From sequence record NC_052655.1: a DNA stretch of 64,000 bases. The stretch is one strand, 5' to 3'. A program made the position numbers and the translations under genes. Within the stretch, counting starts at the first letter, position 1. Each line of letters begins with the position of its first letter. The stretch is from Escherichia phage alia. The notes beneath the pieces were generated by a model, which saw nothing but the letters and a program-made list of their open reading frames with translations, searched no databases and was not told the origin of the DNA. Positions 4,527-38,386 of this stretch are shown here, in pieces.

Positions 4527-4877
4527 ATGGGTAACGCTGTACTGAAAACATATTTTAGCTACCATGAAATGATTGTGGATTTTGCTTCACTATCTCCTGC
4601 ATTAGATGCAGGTAAGACACTTAGTGTTGCTCCACCTATGTCATTCTATACTACAGATGGTAGAGTAGCCCTTGGTGGTAACTTTATTCACTTCTTAGTT
4701 CGTCTACGTGAAGAGACAGGAATTCAGGTTCATCCTTTCGGAAGTGAAGAACATCCTGGCTACTATCTCGTTAGCTATGAAGATTATGCACCTGTAGAAT
4801 TAAAAACGCAAGATAAAATTGAAGTTAAAGCAGTAGACACACCAGCAAAGAAACGTGCACAGCGCACTAAAAAGTAA
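4527..4877 (+). CDS. hypothetical head-tail joining (neck) protein
   Basis: ATG at 4527 preceded by GAGAGGA (the track start at 4509 has no SD). Basic C-terminus. Lies between capsid and tail sheath. Confidence 0.55.
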   Translation: MGNAVLKTYFSYHEMIVDFASLSPALDAGKTLSVAPPMSFYTTDGRVALGGNFIHFLVRLREETGIQVHPFGSEEHPGYYLVSYEDYAPVELKTQDKIEVKAVDTPAKKRAQRTKK

Positions 4878-4889
4878 TAGGAGGTTTAC

Positions 4890-5438
4890 ATGCTTATAGC
4901 TAGTGACCTTGTACCTATGATCCGCATATTGGTATTTAACCCTTCACAAGAAACACTGTCTGATGCAATGATTGAACAAATCATTCAAACGTGGATAGAT
5001 GTACTAGGGAATGATGATGCCAATAAATGTGCTGTACTGTGGAACAGTCTGATCTCTGTACTTGAATACTTGTGGAATACAGACGTACTAAATCATAATA
5101 CACAAACAGGTGGTGCTCTCTCTAGAAAAGAGAAAGTTGGCGAAGTACAGGTTGAAGTAACCTTTGGTACTGGACAGACAGAATACATTTCACCTTGGGA
5201 AAATATCTATAAAGGATATCTTGATGGTGATATGATGATACCTGGTTGTACTTCTGGTAGAGGTGTAACAAGTAAAGTATTAGTTGGTGGTGTTGATGCT
5301 CGTGAAATTGATCGTGTCAACAGCGATCCTAATTCAGTAAATGGTTTAGGTGGTGTTGGTAGTGTAGATCGACATACGAGAAATATCAAATATGCCAGAA
5401 ACTATGGCCCCATTGGTTACTACAGAAGGGATAAATAA
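4890..5438 (+). CDS. hypothetical head-tail joining (neck) protein
   Basis: AGGAGG SD 6 nt before the ATG; its stop overlaps the next start (TAATG). Confidence 0.6.
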   Translation: MLIASDLVPMIRILVFNPSQETLSDAMIEQIIQTWIDVLGNDDANKCAVLWNSLISVLEYLWNTDVLNHNTQTGGALSRKEKVGEVQVEVTFGTGQTEYISPWENIYKGYLDGDMMIPGCTSGRGVTSKVLVGGVDAREIDRVNSDPNSVNGLGGVGSVDRHTRNIKYARNYGPIGYYRRDK

Positions 5439-5926
5439 TGAAATGTGAGATCACACGTGGCGATGATATGTCGTTAGATGAATATTTTAGTAAAATGCTG
5501 GCTCTAGATAATATAGAAATAGATGCTGGTTTTCTTACTGCTGTTCGCCATCCAGAATCAGATCTCACTATCCCTGCAATTGCTGCCATACAACAGTTTG
5601 GTAATGAAACAAACAATACTCCTGCACGTCCGTTTTTAACGGACGGTGCAGTCCACGCCAGTAAAGAAATACCTAAGCATTTTGAAGAAGTGTTTAGAAA
5701 TTATTTACTTCGTGGAAGGGGTTTAGCTGCCTTTGAACCTATTGCAAAAGTTTCACGAGAATCTATTGCTAAAGCGATTGCTCTGCAACGTTATAGACCG
5801 CTATCTTCTGTGACTATTAAAATCCGTAGAGATAAAGGTAACTACTCTTCTCATATTCTTATTGATACTGGACACTTAATTAACAGTATTGAATCAGAAA
5901 TCAAGAAGGGTCGTTCTAAAAAATAA
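5438..5926 (+). CDS. hypothetical head-tail joining (neck) protein
   Basis: ATG overlaps the upstream stop; GAAGGG SD present. Confidence 0.6.
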   Translation: MKCEITRGDDMSLDEYFSKMLALDNIEIDAGFLTAVRHPESDLTIPAIAAIQQFGNETNNTPARPFLTDGAVHASKEIPKHFEEVFRNYLLRGRGLAAFEPIAKVSRESIAKAIALQRYRPLSSVTIKIRRDKGNYSSHILIDTGHLINSIESEIKKGRSKK

Positions 5927-5927
5927 C

Positions 5928-5956
5928 TTGCAATAAGTCTGTTTTTGATGTATACT
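5928..5956 (+). promoter_or_regulatory. sigma70-like promoter candidate (TTGCAA-N17-TATACT)
   Basis: TTGCAA 5928-5933, 17-nt spacer, TATACT 5951-5956, just upstream of the AGGAGA SD and the ATG at 5971. Confidence 0.3.
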
Positions 5957-5970
5957 AAAAAGGAGATACA

Positions 5971-6387
5971 ATGCTATTAGACCAATTTACTCTCCTTGAT
6001 CTAACAACGTATCAGGGTCGTAAAAGAACCTATGTTCAAGATCCTGATTCGCCAATTTCCAATATGGGTAATACAGTAGCATATGAAGACTTTACAATAG
6101 AGGCTGCAAGTTTGCAACCAATATCAGGTAGAACACTTCAAGCACTGCCAGAAGGATACAGATCTAAGGCACAATATAGCTTCTGGACAAAAACAGAAAT
6201 CAGAGGCATCCAGCAAGGATCAGATCAATTATCTGACCAAATACTAATAGATGGACAATGGTTTTCCATTTATTCTTTGAAAGACTGGACAAGAACATCT
6301 TTCTTAATACACACACATTGTGTTGCTATTCTAGATGACCAGAATAACACCTATTCATATTCTGAGGAGGGTGGTAATTTTGGCTAA
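5971..6387 (+). CDS. hypothetical neck / tail-completion protein
   Basis: 138 aa ORF with AGGAGA SD. Confidence 0.6.
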   Translation: MLLDQFTLLDLTTYQGRKRTYVQDPDSPISNMGNTVAYEDFTIEAASLQPISGRTLQALPEGYRSKAQYSFWTKTEIRGIQQGSDQLSDQILIDGQWFSIYSLKDWTRTSFLIHTHCVAILDDQNNTYSYSEEGGNFG

Positions 6388-7036
6388 TATCTATGAACAA
6401 ATTGAATTGTATGAAAATACGATATTATTAAATATCGCTAAGTTCTTACAAAGACTAGTGGGGCTTCCGGTTTATGTTATGGATAAACCATTTGTTAAAC
6501 CAACAACCCCATATCTGACATTACGTATTGTATCATCTGATGATTCAGGTGGTTGGTCACAAAAATATTCTTTTAGTGAAGATGCGTTTTCCTATCTAAT
6601 GGACAATAAGTATGAAATAGAACTTATGGCTTTTAGAGGAAGACCCATGACACTTTTAAGTTATGTTCTTGCGGCACTTCGTGGTGCAGATGAATTAAAA
6701 TACCAGTATCTTTATTCCAAAGGTATTAGCTTCTTATCTGCAACAAATGTTGCACAGGCTAACACTGTTCTGGATGGAGATAAAACTGAACAAAGAGCGA
6801 GAATATTTCTTACATTCAATACTACGATGGTTATTGAGGATTTAGTAACTACCGAAATTGAAGCAATTAATATGAACATTCATTCGTTCAGAGATGATTA
6901 CGATGATCCTACTCCAATAGATCTTCCTTTGGATAAGATTTACATTGTTGCTCACAGAAGTAAAACTTATTACTTTACGACGACTGATGATGGATCATTA
7001 ATTAAGTATATCCCAACGGATAATTCATTGGAATAA
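6380..7036 (+). CDS. hypothetical neck / tail-terminator-like protein
   Basis: TTG at 6380 lies 8 nt after GAGGAGGG and overlaps the upstream stop (TTGGCTAA). The track ATG at 6335 would overlap the previous gene by 53 nt and has no SD. Confidence 0.5.
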   Translation: MANIYEQIELYENTILLNIAKFLQRLVGLPVYVMDKPFVKPTTPYLTLRIVSSDDSGGWSQKYSFSEDAFSYLMDNKYEIELMAFRGRPMTLLSYVLAALRGADELKYQYLYSKGISFLSATNVAQANTVLDGDKTEQRARIFLTFNTTMVIEDLVTTEIEAINMNIHSFRDDYDDPTPIDLPLDKIYIVAHRSKTYYFTTTDDGSLIKYIPTDNSLE

Positions 7037-7056
7037 AGTTTCTAACAGGAGCATAA

Positions 7057-8463
7057 ATGGCAACTTTTCGTGATAAGGTAGTTTCCGTAACCCTTACCTA
7101 CGGTGCTACTTCAATTAGTGAAACACAGTTTGATATCCCTCTAATTCTTACAGGGCATAACGTTACTGGCAATCTTGTAGATTATTTCACTTCTTCAGAC
7201 GCACTTCTGCAAGCAGGTTTTGGCACTGCCGATCCAGCTTATAAAATGGCAAAACTACTATTTGACGGTCTGTTCGCACCAGAACAAGTTATCGTCGGTA
7301 AGCGTGATGTTTCTAAAACAACTCTAACTCCAGTAGTTGAAGATAGTGCAACTTACGTTATCACTATTAAAGCAAATTCAAAAAGCAAGGACTTCAAGTT
7401 TGTTGCCGATGATACTGCAACTGCTCAAGAGATTGTTGTTGGTTTAACAGAAATGATCAACGCAGACGTAGTGTATAAAGAATTTTTCACTGTGTCAAAC
7501 GATGGTAGTGTTATCACTGTAACCCCAGTTGCAGGTAAATACGCTACTATGGATAGTTCAGGATTCACAACTAAAGTAGAATATGCAAATGATATCTTAG
7601 AAGATATTGCTAAAATTGCAGACTATGAAAACAGTTGGTTCTGGTTACTATCTGATTCTCACGCAGAACAAGATATTATCGATCTAGCAGGTTATGTAGA
7701 AGAGCACGATAAAGTGTATTTCTTCTCTACCTCGCAACAAGGTGTTCTAACTAAAGAAGAAGATAACATTCTAGAACGCTTAGGTGATATGGGCTACAAT
7801 AACACTTGTATGGCATTGTGGATGACTAACGCTGATACAGTGTTCCCAGAGGCTGCTGTAGTTGGTTCTATCTGCTCTGCAACACCAGGTACTACTACCC
7901 TACATGGTAAAACCCTTGTTGGTATCGAGATTGAAAAACTTGGTCAGACAGCAGAAAACTTTATCGTTCAACAGAATGGTAATATTTACCGTAAAGAACA
8001 CGGTGTTCTGTTCTACCGTGATGGCTTCATGGTTAGTGGTTTCTATGTTGACTATGTGGTACACGCTCTGTGGTTCAAAGCTCGCGTAGAAGAATCTCTG
8101 TTCGCTCTATTCAAACAGCAATCTATGCTTGGTAGTGGTGTTAGAGCAACTTCTGCTGGTCTTGCTTTGATTCGTCAGGCTGTTACTGCAAACCCAATCC
8201 AAGTAGGTATTAACAATGGTTCTATTGCCAATGAGGTAGTAACTTCAGAGGAAACAGGACTTCTGGTAAGCCTTAAACCTACTATCTATATCCCATCTCG
8301 TGCAGATATGACTGATGCTCAAATCAATGCACGTTTGGTTGATGGTATGGTTATTGAATACGTATATGCTGGATTCTTCCACTATGTTAAAGTGCAGGTA
8401 AACGTTCTAACGAACCGCACTGCAAATAGCCAGAATTCCAATAGCTCTACTGTATCTTCATAA
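7057..8463 (+). CDS. tail sheath protein
   Basis: 468 aa ORF with CAGGAG SD, immediately upstream of a ~160 aa tube-like gene, the frameshifted chaperone pair and the tape measure gene (P2/Mu-like contractile-tail order). Confidence 0.7.
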   Translation: MATFRDKVVSVTLTYGATSISETQFDIPLILTGHNVTGNLVDYFTSSDALLQAGFGTADPAYKMAKLLFDGLFAPEQVIVGKRDVSKTTLTPVVEDSATYVITIKANSKSKDFKFVADDTATAQEIVVGLTEMINADVVYKEFFTVSNDGSVITVTPVAGKYATMDSSGFTTKVEYANDILEDIAKIADYENSWFWLLSDSHAEQDIIDLAGYVEEHDKVYFFSTSQQGVLTKEEDNILERLGDMGYNNTCMALWMTNADTVFPEAAVVGSICSATPGTTTLHGKTLVGIEIEKLGQTAENFIVQQNGNIYRKEHGVLFYRDGFMVSGFYVDYVVHALWFKARVEESLFALFKQQSMLGSGVRATSAGLALIRQAVTANPIQVGINNGSIANEVVTSEETGLLVSLKPTIYIPSRADMTDAQINARLVDGMVIEYVYAGFFHYVKVQVNVLTNRTANSQNSNSSTVSS

Positions 8464-34601: not shown

Positions 34602-35033
34602 TTAGTCAGTGAAAATTACGCTTACATCTTCTTTAGAAAAGAGTTTATGATCTTCACCTTTTGTCTCAAGAGTTTCATACAGGTTAAGAAGTTCTGAAAC
34701 ATCTTTCTCTACCAGTTTCTTCAATGTTGCAATTTTCTGTTTGCGACTCTTAATACGTTCAGCTACAACCTTACGCTGGTATCCGGCAGTACGATAACCT
34801 GAGAAAGTTACACCAGTGAGACTTGCAGTTACAGGATCGTAGTGACGTTCAATCTGAAATTTATTAAAAGGTACAGCGTCATCACGAATAATCTTACCGC
34901 CATTACTTACTTGACGAAGACCAGTAACTTGTTCCAGTCGTGCCATAGAAATCTTTGGAGACAGACCAGAGTCCAGGTTCATACCGTTGTTAATCAGTGC
35001 TTTCAGGGTGATTTTGCTGTTCAGTGTACTCAT
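34602..35033 (-). CDS. hypothetical protein
   Basis: 143 aa; ATG at 35033 preceded by GGAGGAA; overlaps the 3' end of the methyltransferase gene by 44 nt in another frame. Confidence 0.55.
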   Translation of the reverse strand: MSTLNSKITLKALINNGMNLDSGLSPKISMARLEQVTGLRQVSNGGKIIRDDAVPFNKFQIERHYDPVTASLTGVTFSGYRTAGYQRKVVAERIKSRKQKIATLKKLVEKDVSELLNLYETLETKGEDHKLFSKEDVSVIFTD

Positions 35034-35721
35034 TTAGTCGTTCCTCCGCTTGCTTAAAAATATTTACATCGGCTTCACAGCCTAAGTATTCTCTACCTGT
35101 TAAAAGTGCCGCAACTTGTGTTGTTGCACTTCCAGAGAAGAAGTCTAAGACTACATCTCCTTCGTTGGTGTGTATATTAATAAGGTCACAAAACAAAGTC
35201 AAGTGTTTTTGTGTTGGATGAAAACGATCTGCTCCTTGATAGATAGGATACTCAAACACACCCTTATGGTAGGAAGCATTGAAGGTTGGCTTCGAACCTT
35301 TAACACAAACAATAGCCATCTCTTTAGCGTTACTAAGATAGTTAACACCACTGTTGATGGGTACAGGGTTTGTTTTAATCCATTCGATAGTACGGAACAT
35401 ACGAAAACCAAGTGGTTCAAGGATTTCACGTAGTTCTTGGATCTTCCAGATATCATACCAAACGATGCAAGTACCACCTTTTCTAAGCACCCTGTAGGCT
35501 TCTTTGAATACTTCTTTAAAGTAAGGAATATCTACAACATCCCAATCACCAAAGTTGTAAGATACACGGAATCTATCCGTATCTTTTCCAGTCGGCTCTC
35601 CAGATTGAAAATTTGTGTCACGAGAAATAGCATATGGTGGGTCAGTAAGAATCAAATCTACACTATTGCTTTCGAGGGTTTGCAGGTAGTTTAATGCGGT
35701 GTTGTTTACAAATTCGCTCAT
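34990..35721 (-). CDS. DNA methyltransferase (N6-adenine / N4-cytosine type, permuted beta-class)
   Basis: 243 aa; motif IV DPPY near the N-terminus (LILTDPPYA) and AdoMet-binding motif I near the C-terminus (VLDFFSGSATT); AAGGAGA SD. Confidence 0.8.
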   Translation of the reverse strand: MSEFVNNTALNYLQTLESNSVDLILTDPPYAISRDTNFQSGEPTGKDTDRFRVSYNFGDWDVVDIPYFKEVFKEAYRVLRKGGTCIVWYDIWKIQELREILEPLGFRMFRTIEWIKTNPVPINSGVNYLSNAKEMAIVCVKGSKPTFNASYHKGVFEYPIYQGADRFHPTQKHLTLFCDLINIHTNEGDVVLDFFSGSATTQVAALLTGREYLGCEADVNIFKQAEERLNEYTEQQNHPESTD

Positions 35722-35737
35722 TATATCTCCTTCAAAG

Positions 35738-35759
35738 AAAAGGAGCCGTTAGGCTCCTT
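35738..35759 (-). terminator. hairpin terminator; second copy of the GGAGCC hairpin
   Basis: AAAA-GGAGCC-GTTA-GGCTCC-TT, 21/22 identical to the hairpin at 34570-34591. On the minus strand it follows the SSB-like gene and is followed by a T-rich run. Confidence 0.55.
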
Positions 35760-35781
35760 ATATTCACACAATATTTAACTA

Positions 35782-36729
35782 TTAGAAACAGTGCAGGAAG
35801 TTTCGACCATACTGCAAACCAATAGGAGCAAATGGGATATCATCATCGAAATCTTGAACAACAGGTTCTGGTTCTTTCGGTGCTGGCTCTTTCTTCTCTA
35901 CTTTTTTAGTTTCTTTCTTAACTTCTTGTACCGGGGTAGACATTCCACGGATAGCAGCAGCTACTTTATCAGACAAAGCAAGAACTTCACGAGCAGCTTC
36001 AATAATCTCTTCTGCCGTTACAGTTTTACCTGTATGATCACGACAAGCGTTAAGAATTGCGTGTCCAACTGAAGCACCAAGATCATAGTCAGTCACATCA
36101 ACGCCACGATCTTTAGCAATTTCTGCTTTCAGAGTAACAGTTGCAGATTGTACCACACCAGCCAAGTCGAAAGCATCACCTTTCACACCAGCACGTAGAA
36201 GCTCCAGAGCGCCGTTTACAGCGTGTCCTGTTTCAATCCCTACGGTATCACGTTTTTTGTAGTTAGGCTTGCTACCTTCGTTATTAGATGGCTTATTTCC
36301 ACCTTTTGAAGAAGATTGTGCTTGCTGAACACCTTCTGTTGAAAGAATAGTGATTTTACCTTTAGAGGAATTGTAGTATGTTTTGCCATTCCATTCAGAA
36401 GGTTTAACATCCATAGTTAGTTCTACACCTTTTTCGATAGTAACCCACTTATCACCATCTTTAACTTGCAGGTTTTCATGTTCTGGGTGCAGTTTAACTT
36501 CACCTAGGCTAACCCAAACACCTTTATCATCAGCACCAGCACCTTTCTCTTTAATAAGCAGGGATGCTTTGTGAGTTGATTCAATTTTCTTATCTGGCTG
36601 ACCTGCAACCTTAATATAAGAGACTTTCATTTCATCAAACTTATCCAGTTTGACATATTCAACGATACCTTCAGCCCAGAATGCTTCTTTTTTAGTACGA
36701 CGGTCGATTTCAGAATTAATTACTGGCAT
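35782..36729 (-). CDS. putative ssDNA-binding protein with SSB-like acidic motif (DFDDDIPF)
   Basis: 315 aa; DFDDDIPF matches the E. coli SSB C-terminal tip but here is followed by 15 more residues (APIGLQYGRNFLHCF); Lys/Pro/Glu-rich linker precedes it. Confidence 0.45.
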   Translation of the reverse strand: MPVINSEIDRRTKKEAFWAEGIVEYVKLDKFDEMKVSYIKVAGQPDKKIESTHKASLLIKEKGAGADDKGVWVSLGEVKLHPEHENLQVKDGDKWVTIEKGVELTMDVKPSEWNGKTYYNSSKGKITILSTEGVQQAQSSSKGGNKPSNNEGSKPNYKKRDTVGIETGHAVNGALELLRAGVKGDAFDLAGVVQSATVTLKAEIAKDRGVDVTDYDLGASVGHAILNACRDHTGKTVTAEEIIEAAREVLALSDKVAAAIRGMSTPVQEVKKETKKVEKKEPAPKEPEPVVQDFDDDIPFAPIGLQYGRNFLHCF

Positions 36730-36745
36730 AAATTCTCCTCTATAA

Positions 36746-37144
36746 TTACATTACTTTAACACAAAACTCTCGTAAAAGAGTAGCGTCAGTTTCTTCCAAC
36801 AGGTATTTACCAAGACCAATACCAAATCCTATTTCACCACTTTCGAAATGGAGGATTTGTATCTTTTCTCCACCAAGGTTAATTACTTTTGCTTTTCCAG
36901 GATTATCCAAAACATCTCGTATTGTATCCTGTAGTAGCATTAGTTCACGCTTTGTGATAGTGGTTTCAGATATCTCTTTGTTTTCTACCCTCACTGTTAA
37001 ACGATTGTATCCACCAAAGAGACATAGTATTTGAATAAAAAAGGTATTATCTTGAGGTTCAACATCTTTTTTAGTTAGCTCAAGACGATTAGTTTCTCTA
37101 CTGTAGAACGTCTCGACTAAGATTTTAGAACGATTATCTGTCAT
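36746..37144 (-). CDS. hypothetical protein
   Basis: 132 aa ORF in the replication block. Confidence 0.5.
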   Translation of the reverse strand: MTDNRSKILVETFYSRETNRLELTKKDVEPQDNTFFIQILCLFGGYNRLTVRVENKEISETTITKRELMLLQDTIRDVLDNPGKAKVINLGGEKIQILHFESGEIGFGIGLGKYLLEETDATLLREFCVKVM

Positions 37145-37187: not shown

Positions 37188-37802
37188 TTAAATCTTAAAT
37201 TCTTCGTTGTTAAATGAATCCAGTGTACGTACTTCTGGTTCTTTGGGAATGAAAACGTCTTTTACAAAGCGGAACATAGGGAAACGTTCTGCCATTTTAC
37301 GGACGTGTGCTTCTTTACCTGTGTATCGGTGATTAATAGTGCAAATATTAGTTTTCAATGCAAAGTCAAAATCTGGATGATATACATAATTTTGACCATC
37401 CCAGTAACACAAGCAAATAGCTACATCAAAGTTCCATACGATTTCACTGCGTACACCTTCTTCCATGATCATAAAGTTAAACTTAAGATCTTTATAGTAT
37501 GCTTCAAATACCCATTTCAAATGTGGTAGTTCGGCATAAGTGTGTTCTGTTTGCTTAGTAAGTTGTTTAACATTACGTGCACCAACACCCAACATCAAAA
37601 ATTTCTCTACTAGTACGAGTGTATTGTGGTTAGGCATACGCAAGTAAATGTCAATATCTTGCGCAGGTTTCTCTAATCGCCAGTCACGTACAGCGCCGCC
37701 AGCTACAATTGCAAACGGATCTACCAGTTGGCACATACGTAATACTTCTAAAGCTCGTACTTTTTGATCTTCAATATTCATATTTTCTCCTATCGTGTCC
37801 AC
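37188..37802 (-). CDS. nucleotidyltransferase, CCA-adding-enzyme-like head domain (Pol beta superfamily)
   Basis: 204 aa; motif AIVAGGAVRDWRLEKPAQDIDIYL resembles the GGAVRD...D.D signature of class II tRNA nucleotidyltransferases / poly(A) polymerases. Confidence 0.5.
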   Translation of the reverse strand: MDTIGENMNIEDQKVRALEVLRMCQLVDPFAIVAGGAVRDWRLEKPAQDIDIYLRMPNHNTLVLVEKFLMLGVGARNVKQLTKQTEHTYAELPHLKWVFEAYYKDLKFNFMIMEEGVRSEIVWNFDVAICLCYWDGQNYVYHPDFDFALKTNICTINHRYTGKEAHVRKMAERFPMFRFVKDVFIPKEPEVRTLDSFNNEEFKI

Positions 37803-38386
37803 TCTTTATGTTGTTCTACATGCTCAAGCATTTCATTATACAGTGCTTTAAGATGTGGAACAACTCTTTCATCTTCAGTTTCAAAGAATTTTGTAAGCTG
37901 TTCTGCCTTAGCTTTCAACCAGCAAAGATGCGCTTCAATTTCAGTATTAAAACGTCCCAGTGTTATAACACGTCCATCACGTTGAATATGGGCTTTATAC
38001 TTTTTACGATCTTTTTCGTAACTACATCCTACCATAGTCCCATGAGATCTTTTACTTACTCTATAAGCTAAGAACTTGTTAAGATCTCCTGTTACTAAAA
38101 GACAGGTATCGGGAGAGTAAACTCTCCCTCCTATAATATCTTTATCAAGTTCTAAGTTTTCCCAGTTATCCCAAGTTTGCAACCAGGAGTAGAAATTGGA
38201 GAACAGTTTCCATTCTTCACAAACCGTCACCCCATTATAACAAGGATCACGTTCTTGTTGACAAGGGGAGTAACACCTCCCCAACATAGCCATCCATTTC
38301 ATATAATGCGGCGTTAGTTTCTTACTACCAGGTAGCGTACTCTCGCCTTCCAAATCATTAATACCTTCACCATATACGGTAAGCAT
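37790..38386 (-). CDS. putative homing endonuclease-like protein with AP2-type DNA-binding domain
   Basis: 198 aa; N-terminal Y..W..M..RC....Y pattern (HYMKWMAMLGRCYSPC...CEEW) and C-terminal AP2-like segment (GCSYEKDRKKYKAHIQRDGRVITLGRFNTEIEAHLCW), as seen in free-standing phage homing endonucleases. Confidence 0.45.
   Translation of the reverse strand: MLTVYGEGINDLEGESTLPGSKKLTPHYMKWMAMLGRCYSPCQQERDPCYNGVTVCEEWKLFSNFYSWLQTWDNWENLELDKDIIGGRVYSPDTCLLVTGDLNKFLAYRVSKRSHGTMVGCSYEKDRKKYKAHIQRDGRVITLGRFNTEIEAHLCWLKAKAEQLTKFFETEDERVVPHLKALYNEMLEHVEQHKEWTR

What the first reader, a model, noticed from the sequence alone, without database searches (positions are those of the whole stretch)
35782..36729. 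SSB-like protein with an internal, not terminal, DFDDDIPF motif
The sequence DFDDDIPF is identical to the C-terminal tip of E. coli SSB, which recruits many host replication and repair proteins and, as I recall, needs a free C-terminus. Here it is followed by 15 more residues (APIGLQYGRNFLHCF) before the stop, and the protein has an extra helical domain. This could be a decoy that titrates host SSB-interacting proteins, a sequencing or assembly artefact near the cassette hairpin, or a new variant of the interaction motif.
Basis: partly seen in the sequence, partly recalled or inferred. Interest (0 to 1): 0.5.

Follow-up and report, generated by a model that had tools for sequence, protein, structure and literature searches.

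The report
Phage SSB tail capped by mobile-endonuclease cassette
The 15 extra residues after the host-like DDDIPF tip of this phage single-strand-DNA-binding protein are real, conserved and under selection; they were delivered by a homing-endonuclease cassette that inserts exactly between the last codon and the stop codon, and the same unremarked "capped tip" sits on hundreds of phage, prophage and plasmid SSBs.

Summary
Observation confirmed. ORF 35782-36729(-) encodes 315 aa ending DFDDDIPF(293-300)+APIGLQYGRNFLHCF. It has an OB fold, a four-helix bundle and a disordered tail, and it is the phi92 gp156 orthologue.

It is not an artefact. At least 49 phage genomes encode the same protein, and seven differences from a related phage in the 15 codons are all synonymous.

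About 75% of homologues stop right after DDDIPF. That is a true polymorphism. Near-identical phage pairs differ by a cassette inserted exactly at the Phe|stop junction. The cassette holds the 15 extension codons plus an endonuclease gene whose ATG lies inside the extension. Phage nieznany carries the window's exact extension with an intact endonuclease. The window keeps only an 11-codon stub (MVETSCTVSNS*) and a terminator.

At least 71 of 80 relatives of this endonuclease sit directly behind genes ending in an SSB tip.

The extension itself is far broader. It occurs on at least 6 unrelated ssDNA-binding scaffolds in phages, conjugative plasmids and prophages (410 of 5,426 E. coli genomes for one subtype). 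It is under purifying selection, and the internal tip stays conserved.

Its function is not shown. Most likely it caps the tip's free carboxylate and changes which host partners bind. A free-tip homologue (Bas52_0087) triggers the DRT10 defence.

The parts
35782..36729 (-). SSB-like protein gene (315 aa), orthologue of phi92 gp156, PHROG family phrog_4477
   Evidence: ORF list and sequence. phrog_4477 E 2.2e-101, with the profile ending at residue 300. >=99% identical in 49 phage records. BLASTP 2e-15 to Bas52_0087.
36340..36729 (-). N-terminal OB-fold domain (aa 1-130), presumed ssDNA-binding
35950..36243 (-). Four-helix bundle (aa 163-260). Probably an oligomerisation domain, by analogy with Bas52_0087 escape mutations.
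   Evidence: Helices 163-179, 186-208, 215-230 and 239-260, pLDDT >92. Bas52 D252 aligns with the window's nearly invariant D161. The preprint places D252V/Y351C at a putative oligomerisation interface.
35854..35949 (-). Lys/Glu/Pro-rich disordered linker (aa 261-292)
   Evidence: pLDDT 52-66 and no secondary structure. Poorly conserved in the family alignment.
35830..35853 (-). DFDDDIPF, identical to the E. coli SSB C-terminal tip but internal here (aa 293-300)
   Evidence: Translation. Matches PDB SSB chains only at their C-terminal MDFDDDIPF. Tip codons have pN/pS 0.028 in extension-bearing loci (part of the core is fixed by ascertainment).
35785..35829 (-). 15-codon extension APIGLQYGRNFLHCF (aa 301-315); 5' part of the mobile cassette
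   Evidence: Identical peptide in nieznany and EcG1, with only synonymous DNA differences. Family consensus A-P-[IV]-G-L-x-[YF]-x-x-x-x-[IL]-x-x-hydrophobic.
35775..35810 (-). Stub of the homing-endonuclease gene in an overlapping frame: MVETSCTVSNS*; its ATG lies inside extension codons Q-Y-G
   Evidence: Compare the intact nieznany_213 MVETSCIASKVCFKCG... (164 aa, phrog_2340 E 1.5e-48) and the EcG1 stub MVETSCIASKVCFKC|MRLNAE*.
35740..35759 (-). Intrinsic-terminator-like hairpin AAGGAGCC-TAAC-GGCTCCTT followed by a T-rich tail; shared with EcG1

Best explanation
SHOWN: The gene encodes a phage SSB-like protein with an OB fold, a four-helix bundle and a disordered linker that ends in the host SSB tip DFDDDIPF. 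The 15 extra residues are a real, inherited, translated module. In this lineage the module arrived as the 5' end of a mobile cassette inserted exactly between the Phe codon and the stop codon of genes ending ...DDIPF. The cassette consists of the 15 extension codons with their own stop, plus a free-standing endonuclease gene whose ATG sits inside extension codons CAA-T|ATG|G. In phi92-like phages, including this window, the endonuclease gene has since been deleted, leaving the extension, an 11-codon stub and a terminator. The endonuclease family is specialised for the 3' ends of SSB-type genes.

INFERRED: The tip-coding DNA is the homing site, and the extension is carried over by co-conversion. 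The extension is older and broader than the endonuclease. It ends many phage, prophage and conjugative-plasmid SSBs that show no endonuclease trace, and it is under purifying selection there. It is therefore a functional peptide, not a scar.

MOST LIKELY MECHANISM (inferred, not shown): Peptide-bonding Phe300 removes the free alpha-carboxylate that canonical partner pockets anchor, and adds a beta-strand-like APIGLxY plus a new hydrophobic C-terminus. The protein would still coat ssDNA, but the tip's partner set would be changed or made conditional. This may also alter tip-dependent host sensing, since a free-tip homologue triggers DRT10.
For: Reality and selection: 54 genomes are >=95% identical over the region and 49 encode the protein at >=99%. 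Window versus EcG1 shows 7 synonymous and 0 non-synonymous differences in 15 codons. Within-subtype pN/pS is 0.06-0.26 at pS 0.28-0.69. No homologue has an intermediate-length extension: 0-1 residues or 14-17 residues only.

Cassette: AlexBoehm versus MaxBurger differ by a clean ~645-nt insertion at the Phe|stop junction, and the endonuclease ORF ends on the original stop. ESCO13, EcG1 and nieznany show empty, stub and intact states. The 29-nt overlap architecture recurs in rV5, nieznany and morffagbaw, which has a canonical-type SSB next to Erf. In Vequintavirus, every listed extension-plus record that carries annotation except phita32, O157 typing phage 5, phiWec189, MiataMamis and SYGMH1 (listed only as hypothetical proteins) has an endonuclease annotated under the match, and no extension-minus record does.

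Specialisation: in >=71 of 80 IMG/VR loci, the ORF just upstream of an endonuclease relative ends in an SSB-tip motif.

Breadth: at least 154 phage records and 116 plasmid records cover >=80% of the tail query. There are 53 clusters at 50% identity with the motif C-terminal in nearly all, on scaffolds phrog_4477, 2544/32668, 3284, 9002/DUF669, 44 and canonical SSB. 410 of 5,426 E. coli genomes carry one subtype. About 125 of 135 extension-bearing loci show no endonuclease trace.

Tip retained: EPPMDFDDDIPF is conserved in extension-bearing genes.

Capping logic: SSB-Ct pockets use a hydrophobic pocket, a basic lip that anchors the alpha-carboxyl group, and a basic ridge (PMC10164576).

Family biology: Bas52_0087 (408 aa, free ...FDDDIPF) is required to trigger DRT10, and ExoI/SbcB antagonises it.
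Against: No binding, cleavage or homing was tested, so the functional part is inference. AlphaFold2 leaves the extension unstructured (pLDDT about 52-56) and suggests no partner. If the cap simply blocked the tip, the tip should decay, yet it stays conserved. That fits conditional or bipartite binding, or proteolytic unmasking, as well as it fits 'capping'. Part of the tip's invariance (DDIPFAP / FDDDIPFA) was imposed by the search patterns. The nuclease class has no Pfam hit and rests on PHROG names and on motifs read by eye. Most relatives of the endonuclease follow tips with 0-1 extra residue, not the 15-aa extension, so the endonuclease does not need the extension. Whether the extension helps the phage, the endonuclease or both is unresolved.
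Confidence: 0.6

Rival explanations
1. Neutral footprint. The extension is only the translated leader of a selfish endonuclease cassette, for example to couple endonuclease translation to the highly expressed SSB gene. It has no role for the SSB-like protein, and in the window it is a fossil left after the endonuclease was deleted.
For: The extension arrives together with the endonuclease, and the endonuclease start codon lies inside it. The window and EcG1 hold endonuclease stubs.
Against: Purifying selection acts on the extension frame where no endonuclease is present: 7 of 7 synonymous changes between window and EcG1, and pN/pS 0.06-0.26 within subtypes. Changes that are synonymous for the extension are non-synonymous in the stub frame (read from the sequences). 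No truncated extensions exist among 100 homologues. About 125 of 135 extension-bearing loci have no endonuclease remnant. Translational coupling would not need 15 conserved residues.
Confidence: 0.12
2. Removable pro-peptide or degron. The hydrophobic C-terminal extension is trimmed, or it targets the protein to a host protease (ClpXP, Lon or FtsH type). Either the free DDDIPF tip is regenerated after translation, or the protein's lifetime is limited.
For: The internal tip remains strongly conserved, as expected if it becomes terminal again. F-A-P is the most invariant junction, and the last residue is almost always hydrophobic. Non-polar disordered C-termini are known protease signals in E. 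coli (own knowledge, not tested here).
Against: No protease is known to cut F|AP, and nothing was tested. A generic degron would not need the conserved G-L-x-Y core. The resemblances to ssrA and to the SulA C-terminus were recalled from memory and hold for only a few variants.
Confidence: 0.15
3. Decoy. The protein titrates host SSB-interacting proteins through its DDDIPF motif.
For: The tip is identical to the host's. [quoted passage not shown]
Against: This would apply to the free-tip alleles and does not explain the extension. Canonical pockets anchor the terminal carboxylate, which is absent here. The OB fold and linker argue for a working ssDNA-binding protein rather than a pure decoy.
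Confidence: 0.08
4. Sequencing, assembly or annotation artefact: the true stop lies directly after DDDIPF.
For: About 75% of homologues do stop there.
Against: The same sequence occurs in about 50 independently sequenced genomes. There are synonymous-only differences from EcG1 and nieznany. The extension-plus and extension-minus alleles differ by a defined cassette, not by a point error.
Confidence: 0.01

Closest known systems
C-terminal tip of E. coli SSB (SSB-Ct, ...PPMDFDDDIPF)
   Same: The window has the identical 8-residue DFDDDIPF at the end of a disordered linker behind an OB fold. Many extension-bearing relatives share 11-12 residues (EPPMDFDDDIPF) with the host.
   Different: Here the Phe is peptide-bonded to 15 more residues, so the alpha-carboxyl group that the partner's 'basic lip' anchors (PMC10164576) is absent. 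The OB scaffold is not PF00436.
Bas52_0087 (QXV84166.1) of phage RudolfGeigy, the SSB-like trigger of the DRT10/UG17 defence (bioRxiv 10.64898/2026.04.29.721553)
   Same: Homologous OB and helical domains (BLASTP 2e-15, 33-41% identity), the same PHROG family lineage (rV5 gp209 type) and the same tip motif.
   Different: Bas52_0087 has two OB folds (408 aa) and a free ...FDDDIPF end. The window protein has one OB fold and the 15-aa cap. The preprint does not mention extended alleles.
T4 SegG, a free-standing GIY-YIG homing endonuclease between genes 32 and 59 that targets gene 32 (the T4 SSB) (PMC2988022)
   Same: A free-standing endonuclease gene next to the phage ssDNA-binding-protein gene, with presence/absence polymorphism between relatives and co-conversion of flanking sequence.
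   Different: A different nuclease family (phrog_2340/1035; HNH or endonuclease-VII-like by PHROG names). Insertion is at the exact last-codon|stop junction on the 3' side, and the cassette extends the SSB reading frame by 15 conserved residues. No cleavage was tested.
Phage and plasmid SSBs with free host-like or variant tips (e.g. P1 Ssb; HK620 SSB ...NDYPPF, needed by Sak4, PMC5928155)
   Same: ssDNA-binding proteins encoded by mobile elements whose last six residues mediate partner recruitment.
   Different: Those tips are terminal. The class described here carries a conserved 14-17-residue add-on after the tip.

Membership tests
Canonical bacterial SSB (Pfam PF00436 type) | Sequence match to the SSB OB-domain family | tested here: not met
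   No Pfam family at E<=0.1 and no PDB sequence match at E<=10. The similarity is at fold level only.
Canonical bacterial SSB (Pfam PF00436 type) | OB fold followed by a disordered linker and an acidic tip | tested here: met
Canonical bacterial SSB (Pfam PF00436 type) | ssDNA binding and homotetramer formation | not testable with these tools
   Needs EMSA and SEC-MALS.
Functional SSB-Ct interaction tip | Asp-rich stretch followed by I-P-F | tested here: met
   DFDDDIPF.
Functional SSB-Ct interaction tip | Phe is the C-terminal residue with a free alpha-carboxyl group (anchored by the partner's basic lip; PMC10164576) | tested here: not met
   15 residues follow Phe300.
Functional SSB-Ct interaction tip | Binds host SSB-interacting proteins (ExoI, chi, PriA, RecQ and others) | not testable with these tools
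   Needs peptide binding assays or pull-downs.
phrog_4477 / phi92 gp156 / rV5 gp209 / Bas52_0087 SSB-like family | Full-length sequence homology | tested here: met
   phrog_4477 E 2.2e-101. 97-100% identity to phi92-like orthologues. BLASTP 2e-15 to Bas52_0087.
Extended SSB tip (DDDIPF + A-P-[IV]-G-L-x-[YF]-...-hydrophobic end) | 14-17 residues directly after the tip Phe that match the profile and lie at the extreme C-terminus | tested here: met
   The window tail is the first row of profile A4. There are 53 clusters at 50% identity, with the motif C-terminal in nearly all.
Extended SSB tip (DDDIPF + A-P-[IV]-G-L-x-[YF]-...-hydrophobic end) | Purifying selection on the extension peptide | tested here: met
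   7 synonymous and 0 non-synonymous differences versus EcG1; pN/pS 0.06-0.26 within subtypes.
Free-standing homing-endonuclease cassette | Intact endonuclease gene present | tested here: not met
   The window keeps only an 11-codon stub. The intact gene is in nieznany (164 aa, phrog_2340 E 1.5e-48).
Free-standing homing-endonuclease cassette | Presence/absence polymorphism with a precise, recurrent junction between near-identical genomes | tested here: met
   AlexBoehm/MaxBurger, ESCO13/EcG1/nieznany, and the two Vequintavirus classes.
Free-standing homing-endonuclease cassette | Consistent association of the endonuclease family with one target gene type | tested here: met
   >=71 of 80 relatives lie just downstream of an ORF ending in an SSB-tip motif.
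Free-standing homing-endonuclease cassette | Site-specific cleavage of the cassette-less allele and biased inheritance | not testable with these tools
   Needs in vitro cleavage assays and co-infection crosses.
Free-standing homing-endonuclease cassette | Recognised nuclease domain in a curated library | tested here: inconclusive
   No Pfam hit. PHROG names are 'endonuclease', 'endonuclease VII' and 'HNH endonuclease'. The HH...WLC..HH..WH motif was read by eye.

The most novel reading that the evidence does not exclude
The 15-residue cap is a functional cargo that a homing endonuclease spreads between mobile elements. On this reading it is a portable peptide switch that converts the promiscuous host-SSB tip into a masked or retargeted ligand, letting phages and plasmids keep ssDNA coating while escaping tip-dependent host nucleases or immune sensors such as DRT10 with ExoI. 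That would be a selfish nuclease carrying an anti-defence or host-interaction module, and the first natural SSB tip that works without a free C-terminus.
Probability: 0.25. Interest if true: 0.85.

Novelty: new variant of a known kind. Interest (0 to 1): 0.66.

Why it matters
Work on SSB treats the free C-terminal Phe of the tip as indispensable for recruiting about 20 genome-maintenance proteins. Here a natural, conserved and widespread class of phage, prophage and plasmid ssDNA-binding proteins keeps a perfect host-like tip but buries it behind a selected 15-residue add-on. Databases annotate these genes simply as 'ssb' or 'hypothetical'.

This gives a direct handle on how mobile elements tune the host SSB interactome. 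Natural isogenic pairs already exist in the BASEL collection: Bas54 is capped, and Bas52 and Bas56 have free tips. A free-tip member of the family is a known trigger of the DRT10 defence, so a functional test is straightforward.

The work also identifies an endonuclease family that homes to the tip-coding end of SSB genes. That explains how the same tail moved onto unrelated scaffolds.

Tried and rejected
- Pfam found no family for the SSB-like protein, and a PDB sequence search found nothing.
It was redone with 42-aa tails, which returned mostly fragments. The representative-library HMM search gave the usable picture.
- The tail profile against PDB matched only the terminal MDFDDDIPF of SSB chains and engineered fusions. 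Nothing matched the extension.
- Literature searches for the peptide strings IPFAPIGL, IPFAPVGL, IPFAPVTL and DIPFAP found no paper. Searches on SSB-Ct in phages and plasmids found no description of extended tips.
- I first suspected that the endonuclease always accompanies the extension. That was rejected: of 127 loci scanned for ORFs, only L013 and L090 have an intact relative, and among all 135 extension-bearing loci only the QYG[RK]/QEGR clade shows endonuclease genes or stubs.
- Three ideas recalled from memory were not supported: a beta-clamp motif (QL[SD]LF) does not fit the conserved positions; similarity to the SulA sul20 Lon degron or to ssrA YALAA holds for only a few variants; no dedicated phage partner is likely, because extension-plus and extension-minus alleles sit in otherwise identical gene neighbourhoods.
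- Per-phage DRT10 sensitivity could not be obtained. The data are in a figure and are not in the text.
- A programmed frameshift or read-through at the tip was considered by eye. There is no slippery heptamer and no nearby stop in the alternative frames, so it was dropped.

Full report
**1. The observation**

The minus-strand ORF 35782..36729 encodes 315 aa. Translating 35782-35853 gives DFDDDIPFAPIGLQYGRNFLHCF*. So DFDDDIPF is residues 293-300 (nt 35830-35853), the extension is residues 301-315 (nt 35785-35829), and TAA is at 35782-35784. A terminator-like hairpin follows at 35740-35759(-).

**2. What the protein is**

- The window is a phi92-like (Justusliebigvirus) phage. 54 phage records match 35600-36900 at >=95% identity, and 49 encode the protein at >=99%. 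The gene is the orthologue of Phi92_gp156.
- Pfam gives nothing. PHROGs gives phrog_4477 (function unknown) at E 2.2e-101, and that profile ends at residue 300, the Phe of DDDIPF.
- An AlphaFold2 model built on a 79-sequence alignment (mean pLDDT 84.6) has a beta domain at 1-130, a disordered stretch at 131-160, a four-helix bundle at 163-260 and a disordered tail at 261-315.
- 'SSB-like' is therefore supported at fold and architecture level. It is not supported at family level, and ssDNA binding itself is untested.

**3. Not an artefact, but a polymorphism**

Among 100 homologues, about 75 end exactly at ...D[IVL]PF. Twenty-four (99% down to about 30% identity) carry 14-17 further residues of one conserved type: APIGLQYGRNFLHCF, APIGLPYGRNFIHCI, APVGLQYARHAIYAI and SPLGLQYPNHSMYALYA. 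One homologue has a single extra residue, and none has an intermediate length.

Two Phapecoctavirus genomes with identical gene order make a natural pair. They are near-identical in DNA up to GATGATGATATTCC(R)TT. ESCO13 then has a stop and its own terminator. EcG1 continues with the 15 codons and has the window's terminator hairpin. Window versus EcG1 shows 7 differences in the 15 codons, all synonymous.

**4. Where the extension came from**

- In Vequintavirus, proteins >99% identical fall into two classes. One covers residues 1-423 (extension present). In that class, every listed annotated record except phita32, O157 typing phage 5, phiWec189, MiataMamis and SYGMH1 has an 'endonuclease VII' or 'homing endonuclease' annotated under the match. 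The other class covers 1-408 (ends at ...DIPF), and none of its records has one.
- AlexBoehm/Bas56 and MaxBurger/Bas54 differ by one clean ~645-nt insertion, placed exactly between the Phe codon and the TAA of the SSB-like gene. The insert starts with the extension codons and their own stop (APVGLQYGKSRIHAL*).
- The insert contains a 207-aa endonuclease ORF (phrog_1035). Its ATG lies inside extension codons CAA-T|ATG|GC, and it ends ...TAC TTC on the original TAA.
- The same 29-nt-overlap architecture occurs in rV5, in the Phapecoctavirus nieznany, and in the siphovirus morffagbaw. In morffagbaw the upstream gene is a canonical-type ssb next to Erf.
- nieznany carries exactly the window's extension, followed by an intact 164-aa endonuclease: MVETSCIASKVCFKCG...HHCDYDKPL..WLCPLHHEAWH...GLNAE (phrog_2340, E 1.5e-48).
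- In the same overlapping frame, EcG1 reads MVETSCIASKVCFKC|MRLNAE*. That is an internal deletion keeping the first 15 and last 5 codons. The window reads MVETSCTVSNS* at 35775-35810.
- So the window carries a cassette whose endonuclease has been deleted, while the extension has been kept intact.

**5. The endonuclease family is specialised for SSB 3' ends**

A scan of IMG/VR with the nieznany/morffagbaw endonuclease gave 158 confirmed relatives, of which the best 80 were fetched. In at least 71 of those 80, the ORF that ends just upstream terminates in an SSB-tip motif. The endings are PF+Asn 48, free PF 16, PF+Ser 3, PF+Asp 2, the 15-aa extension 4, other short extensions 3, and none 4.

From this I infer, without a test, that the conserved tip-coding DNA is the homing target, and that crossing-over within it carries whatever lies 3' of the Phe codon. 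T4 SegG, a free-standing endonuclease between genes 32 and 59 that targets gene 32, is the closest precedent (PMC2988022).

**6. The extension is broader than the endonuclease**

- Tail-only searches find the same composite end on canonical Gln/Gly-rich SSBs of Escherichia, Salmonella, Proteus, Providencia, Klebsiella and Tatumella.
- At least 154 phage records cover >=80% of the tail query, including lambdoid mEp235, whose 168-aa SSB ends EPPMDFDDDIPFAPVTLPFPRHAIHAI and lies next to a Rad52-like annealase, exo and abc2.
- 116 plasmid records cover >=80% of the query, and 100 of the 133 matching plasmids are conjugative.
- 47 species-representative genomes match, nearly all Gammaproteobacteria.
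- 410 of 5,426 complete E. coli genomes carry one subtype alone, annotated just 'ssb'.
- An HMM search of 1.84 billion representatives finds 53 clusters at 50% identity, with the motif at the extreme C-terminus in nearly all.
- The scaffolds include phrog_4477, phrog_2544/32668, phrog_3284, phrog_9002/DUF669, phrog_44 and canonical SSB. In those with full-length PHROG matches (phrog_4477, 2544, 3284), the family profile ends at the tip and the extension lies beyond it.
- Of 135 extension-bearing loci, only the QYG[RK]/QEGR clade, which includes the window, shows endonuclease genes or stubs.

**7. Selection**

- Within subtypes the extension has pN/pS 0.06-0.26, with pS 0.28-0.69.
- Across 78 unique tails, pN/pS is 0.73 for the linker, 0.29 for extension residues 1-7, 0.53 for residues 8-15, and 0.028 for the tip.
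- Caveat: the core DDIPFAP / FDDDIPFA was imposed by the search patterns. The flanking E-P-P-M-D-F positions were not imposed and are still conserved.
- Between window and EcG1, changes that are synonymous in the extension frame are non-synonymous in the stub frame (T7I and V8A; read). The extension peptide is therefore the selected product.
- The extension has alternating hydrophobic residues at I3, L5 and Y7, further hydrophobic positions at 11, 12 and 15, and an almost invariably hydrophobic last residue.

**8. Mechanism**

Shown: the protein's architecture, the reality of the extension and selection on it, its delivery by a cassette in this lineage, and the endonuclease family's association with SSB 3' ends.

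Inferred: canonical partner pockets bury the terminal Phe, anchor its alpha-carboxyl group with a basic lip, and contact the Asp residues with a basic ridge (PMC10164576). With Phe300 peptide-bonded, that anchor is gone. Yet the tip stays conserved, so it is still used. Three possibilities fit:

- (a) The capped tail is a modified or bipartite ligand with a changed partner set.
- (b) The cap makes tip use conditional.
- (c) The cap is removed or acts as a protease signal.

I favour (a) or (b), because the extension has its own conserved core and a fixed length. No result here separates them from (c).

**9. Link to known biology**

Bas52 is phage RudolfGeigy. bas52_0087 (QXV84166.1) is the rV5-type homologue with a free ...QYSFDDDIPF end. 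It aligns with the window protein in both folded domains, and its escape residue D252 aligns with the window's nearly invariant D161.

The preprint 10.64898/2026.04.29.721553 shows that this protein is required to trigger the DRT10 reverse-transcriptase defence, that host ExoI/SbcB antagonises activation, and that DRT10 also restricts Stephanstirmvirinae. The ESCO13 and nieznany records place Phapecoctavirus in that subfamily; Justusliebigvirus, the window's genus, also belongs to it by my own knowledge of the taxonomy, which I did not check here. The preprint does not mention capped alleles. Natural capped and uncapped pairs therefore exist in the same phage collection (Bas54 versus Bas52 and Bas56), and the question is directly testable.

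**10. Novelty and verdict**

No paper in the searchable library contains the extension strings or describes extended SSB tips. The protein family, SSB tips and free-standing homing endonucleases are all known kinds. The conserved capped tip, and an endonuclease family that homes to the last-codon|stop junction of SSB genes, are new variants of those kinds.

'Artefact' is refuted. 'New variant of the motif' is supported as a sequence class. 'Decoy' is untested. The origin, a degraded homing-endonuclease cassette, was missed.

Noticed in passing
IMG/VR loci L140-L219 (e.g. L142, L146, L159, L172): In 48 of 80 loci with a relative of the endonuclease, the upstream SSB-type ORF ends ...IPF-Asn, a one-residue cap. 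The junction DNA is strikingly conserved (GAYATHCCTTTTAATTAG...TATAAT), which may be an embedded promoter or the homing site. So a blocked terminal Phe is common even outside the 15-aa class.
   Followed up: partly
window 37790-38386 (-): A separate 198-aa HNH endonuclease gene (phrog_953, E 8.5e-74) lies three genes upstream of the SSB-like gene. This is a second likely homing endonuclease in the same early-gene cluster.
   Followed up: no
window 34990-35721 (-), 36746-37144 (-), 37188-37802 (-): The neighbours are a Dam-like N6/N4 DNA methyltransferase (PF01555, E 1.9e-30), a conserved 132-aa protein of unknown function (phrog_16560) and a nucleotidyltransferase (phrog_1614). The last two keep their order next to the SSB-like gene in Phapecoctavirus.
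   Followed up: no
L006 (plasmid p96A29192-65, IncFIC/FII, conjugative) 4545-7437: An extension-bearing ssb is immediately followed by a type IA topoisomerase gene. Topo III is a known partner of the SSB tip in E. coli (own knowledge), so this may hint at a partner.
   Followed up: no
L005/L008/L009 (rV5, AlexBoehm, MaxBurger): Vequintavirus tips read DF-C-DDIPF (Cys in place of Asp) in both capped and uncapped alleles, whereas Bas52 reads SFDDDIPF. The tip itself therefore varies within the genus.
   Followed up: no
E. coli chromosomes H260-H262 (e.g. NZ_CP092252.1 1447028-1447075): Matches of 46-48 nt to the extension-coding DNA alone, at 98-100% identity, lie where no gene is annotated. They may be orphan extension remnants or unannotated or pseudogenised ssb ends.
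   Followed up: no
INPHARED records MG0656xx: About 20 'Campylobacter phage' records (host C. jejuni) are 98-99% identical to E. coli phi92-like and rV5-like phages. The host labels look doubtful.
   Followed up: no
L126, L128, L130, L131, L134, L136 (Pseudomonas, Azoarcus, Gallionella, a Proteobacteria MAG, Parcubacteria MAG): Shorter or divergent add-ons also follow DDDIPF-AP outside Enterobacterales and Vibrionales, for example APLHHLAGA and APIARGIHSYSV. F-A-P is the most persistent feature.
   Followed up: no
P0100 (179 aa) and L013 (382-aa scaffold, extension APIGLQEGRLFLHMI): Further unrelated scaffolds carry the capped tip. L013 also has an adjacent relative of the endonuclease, so the cassette has reached at least five different host genes.
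   Followed up: partly
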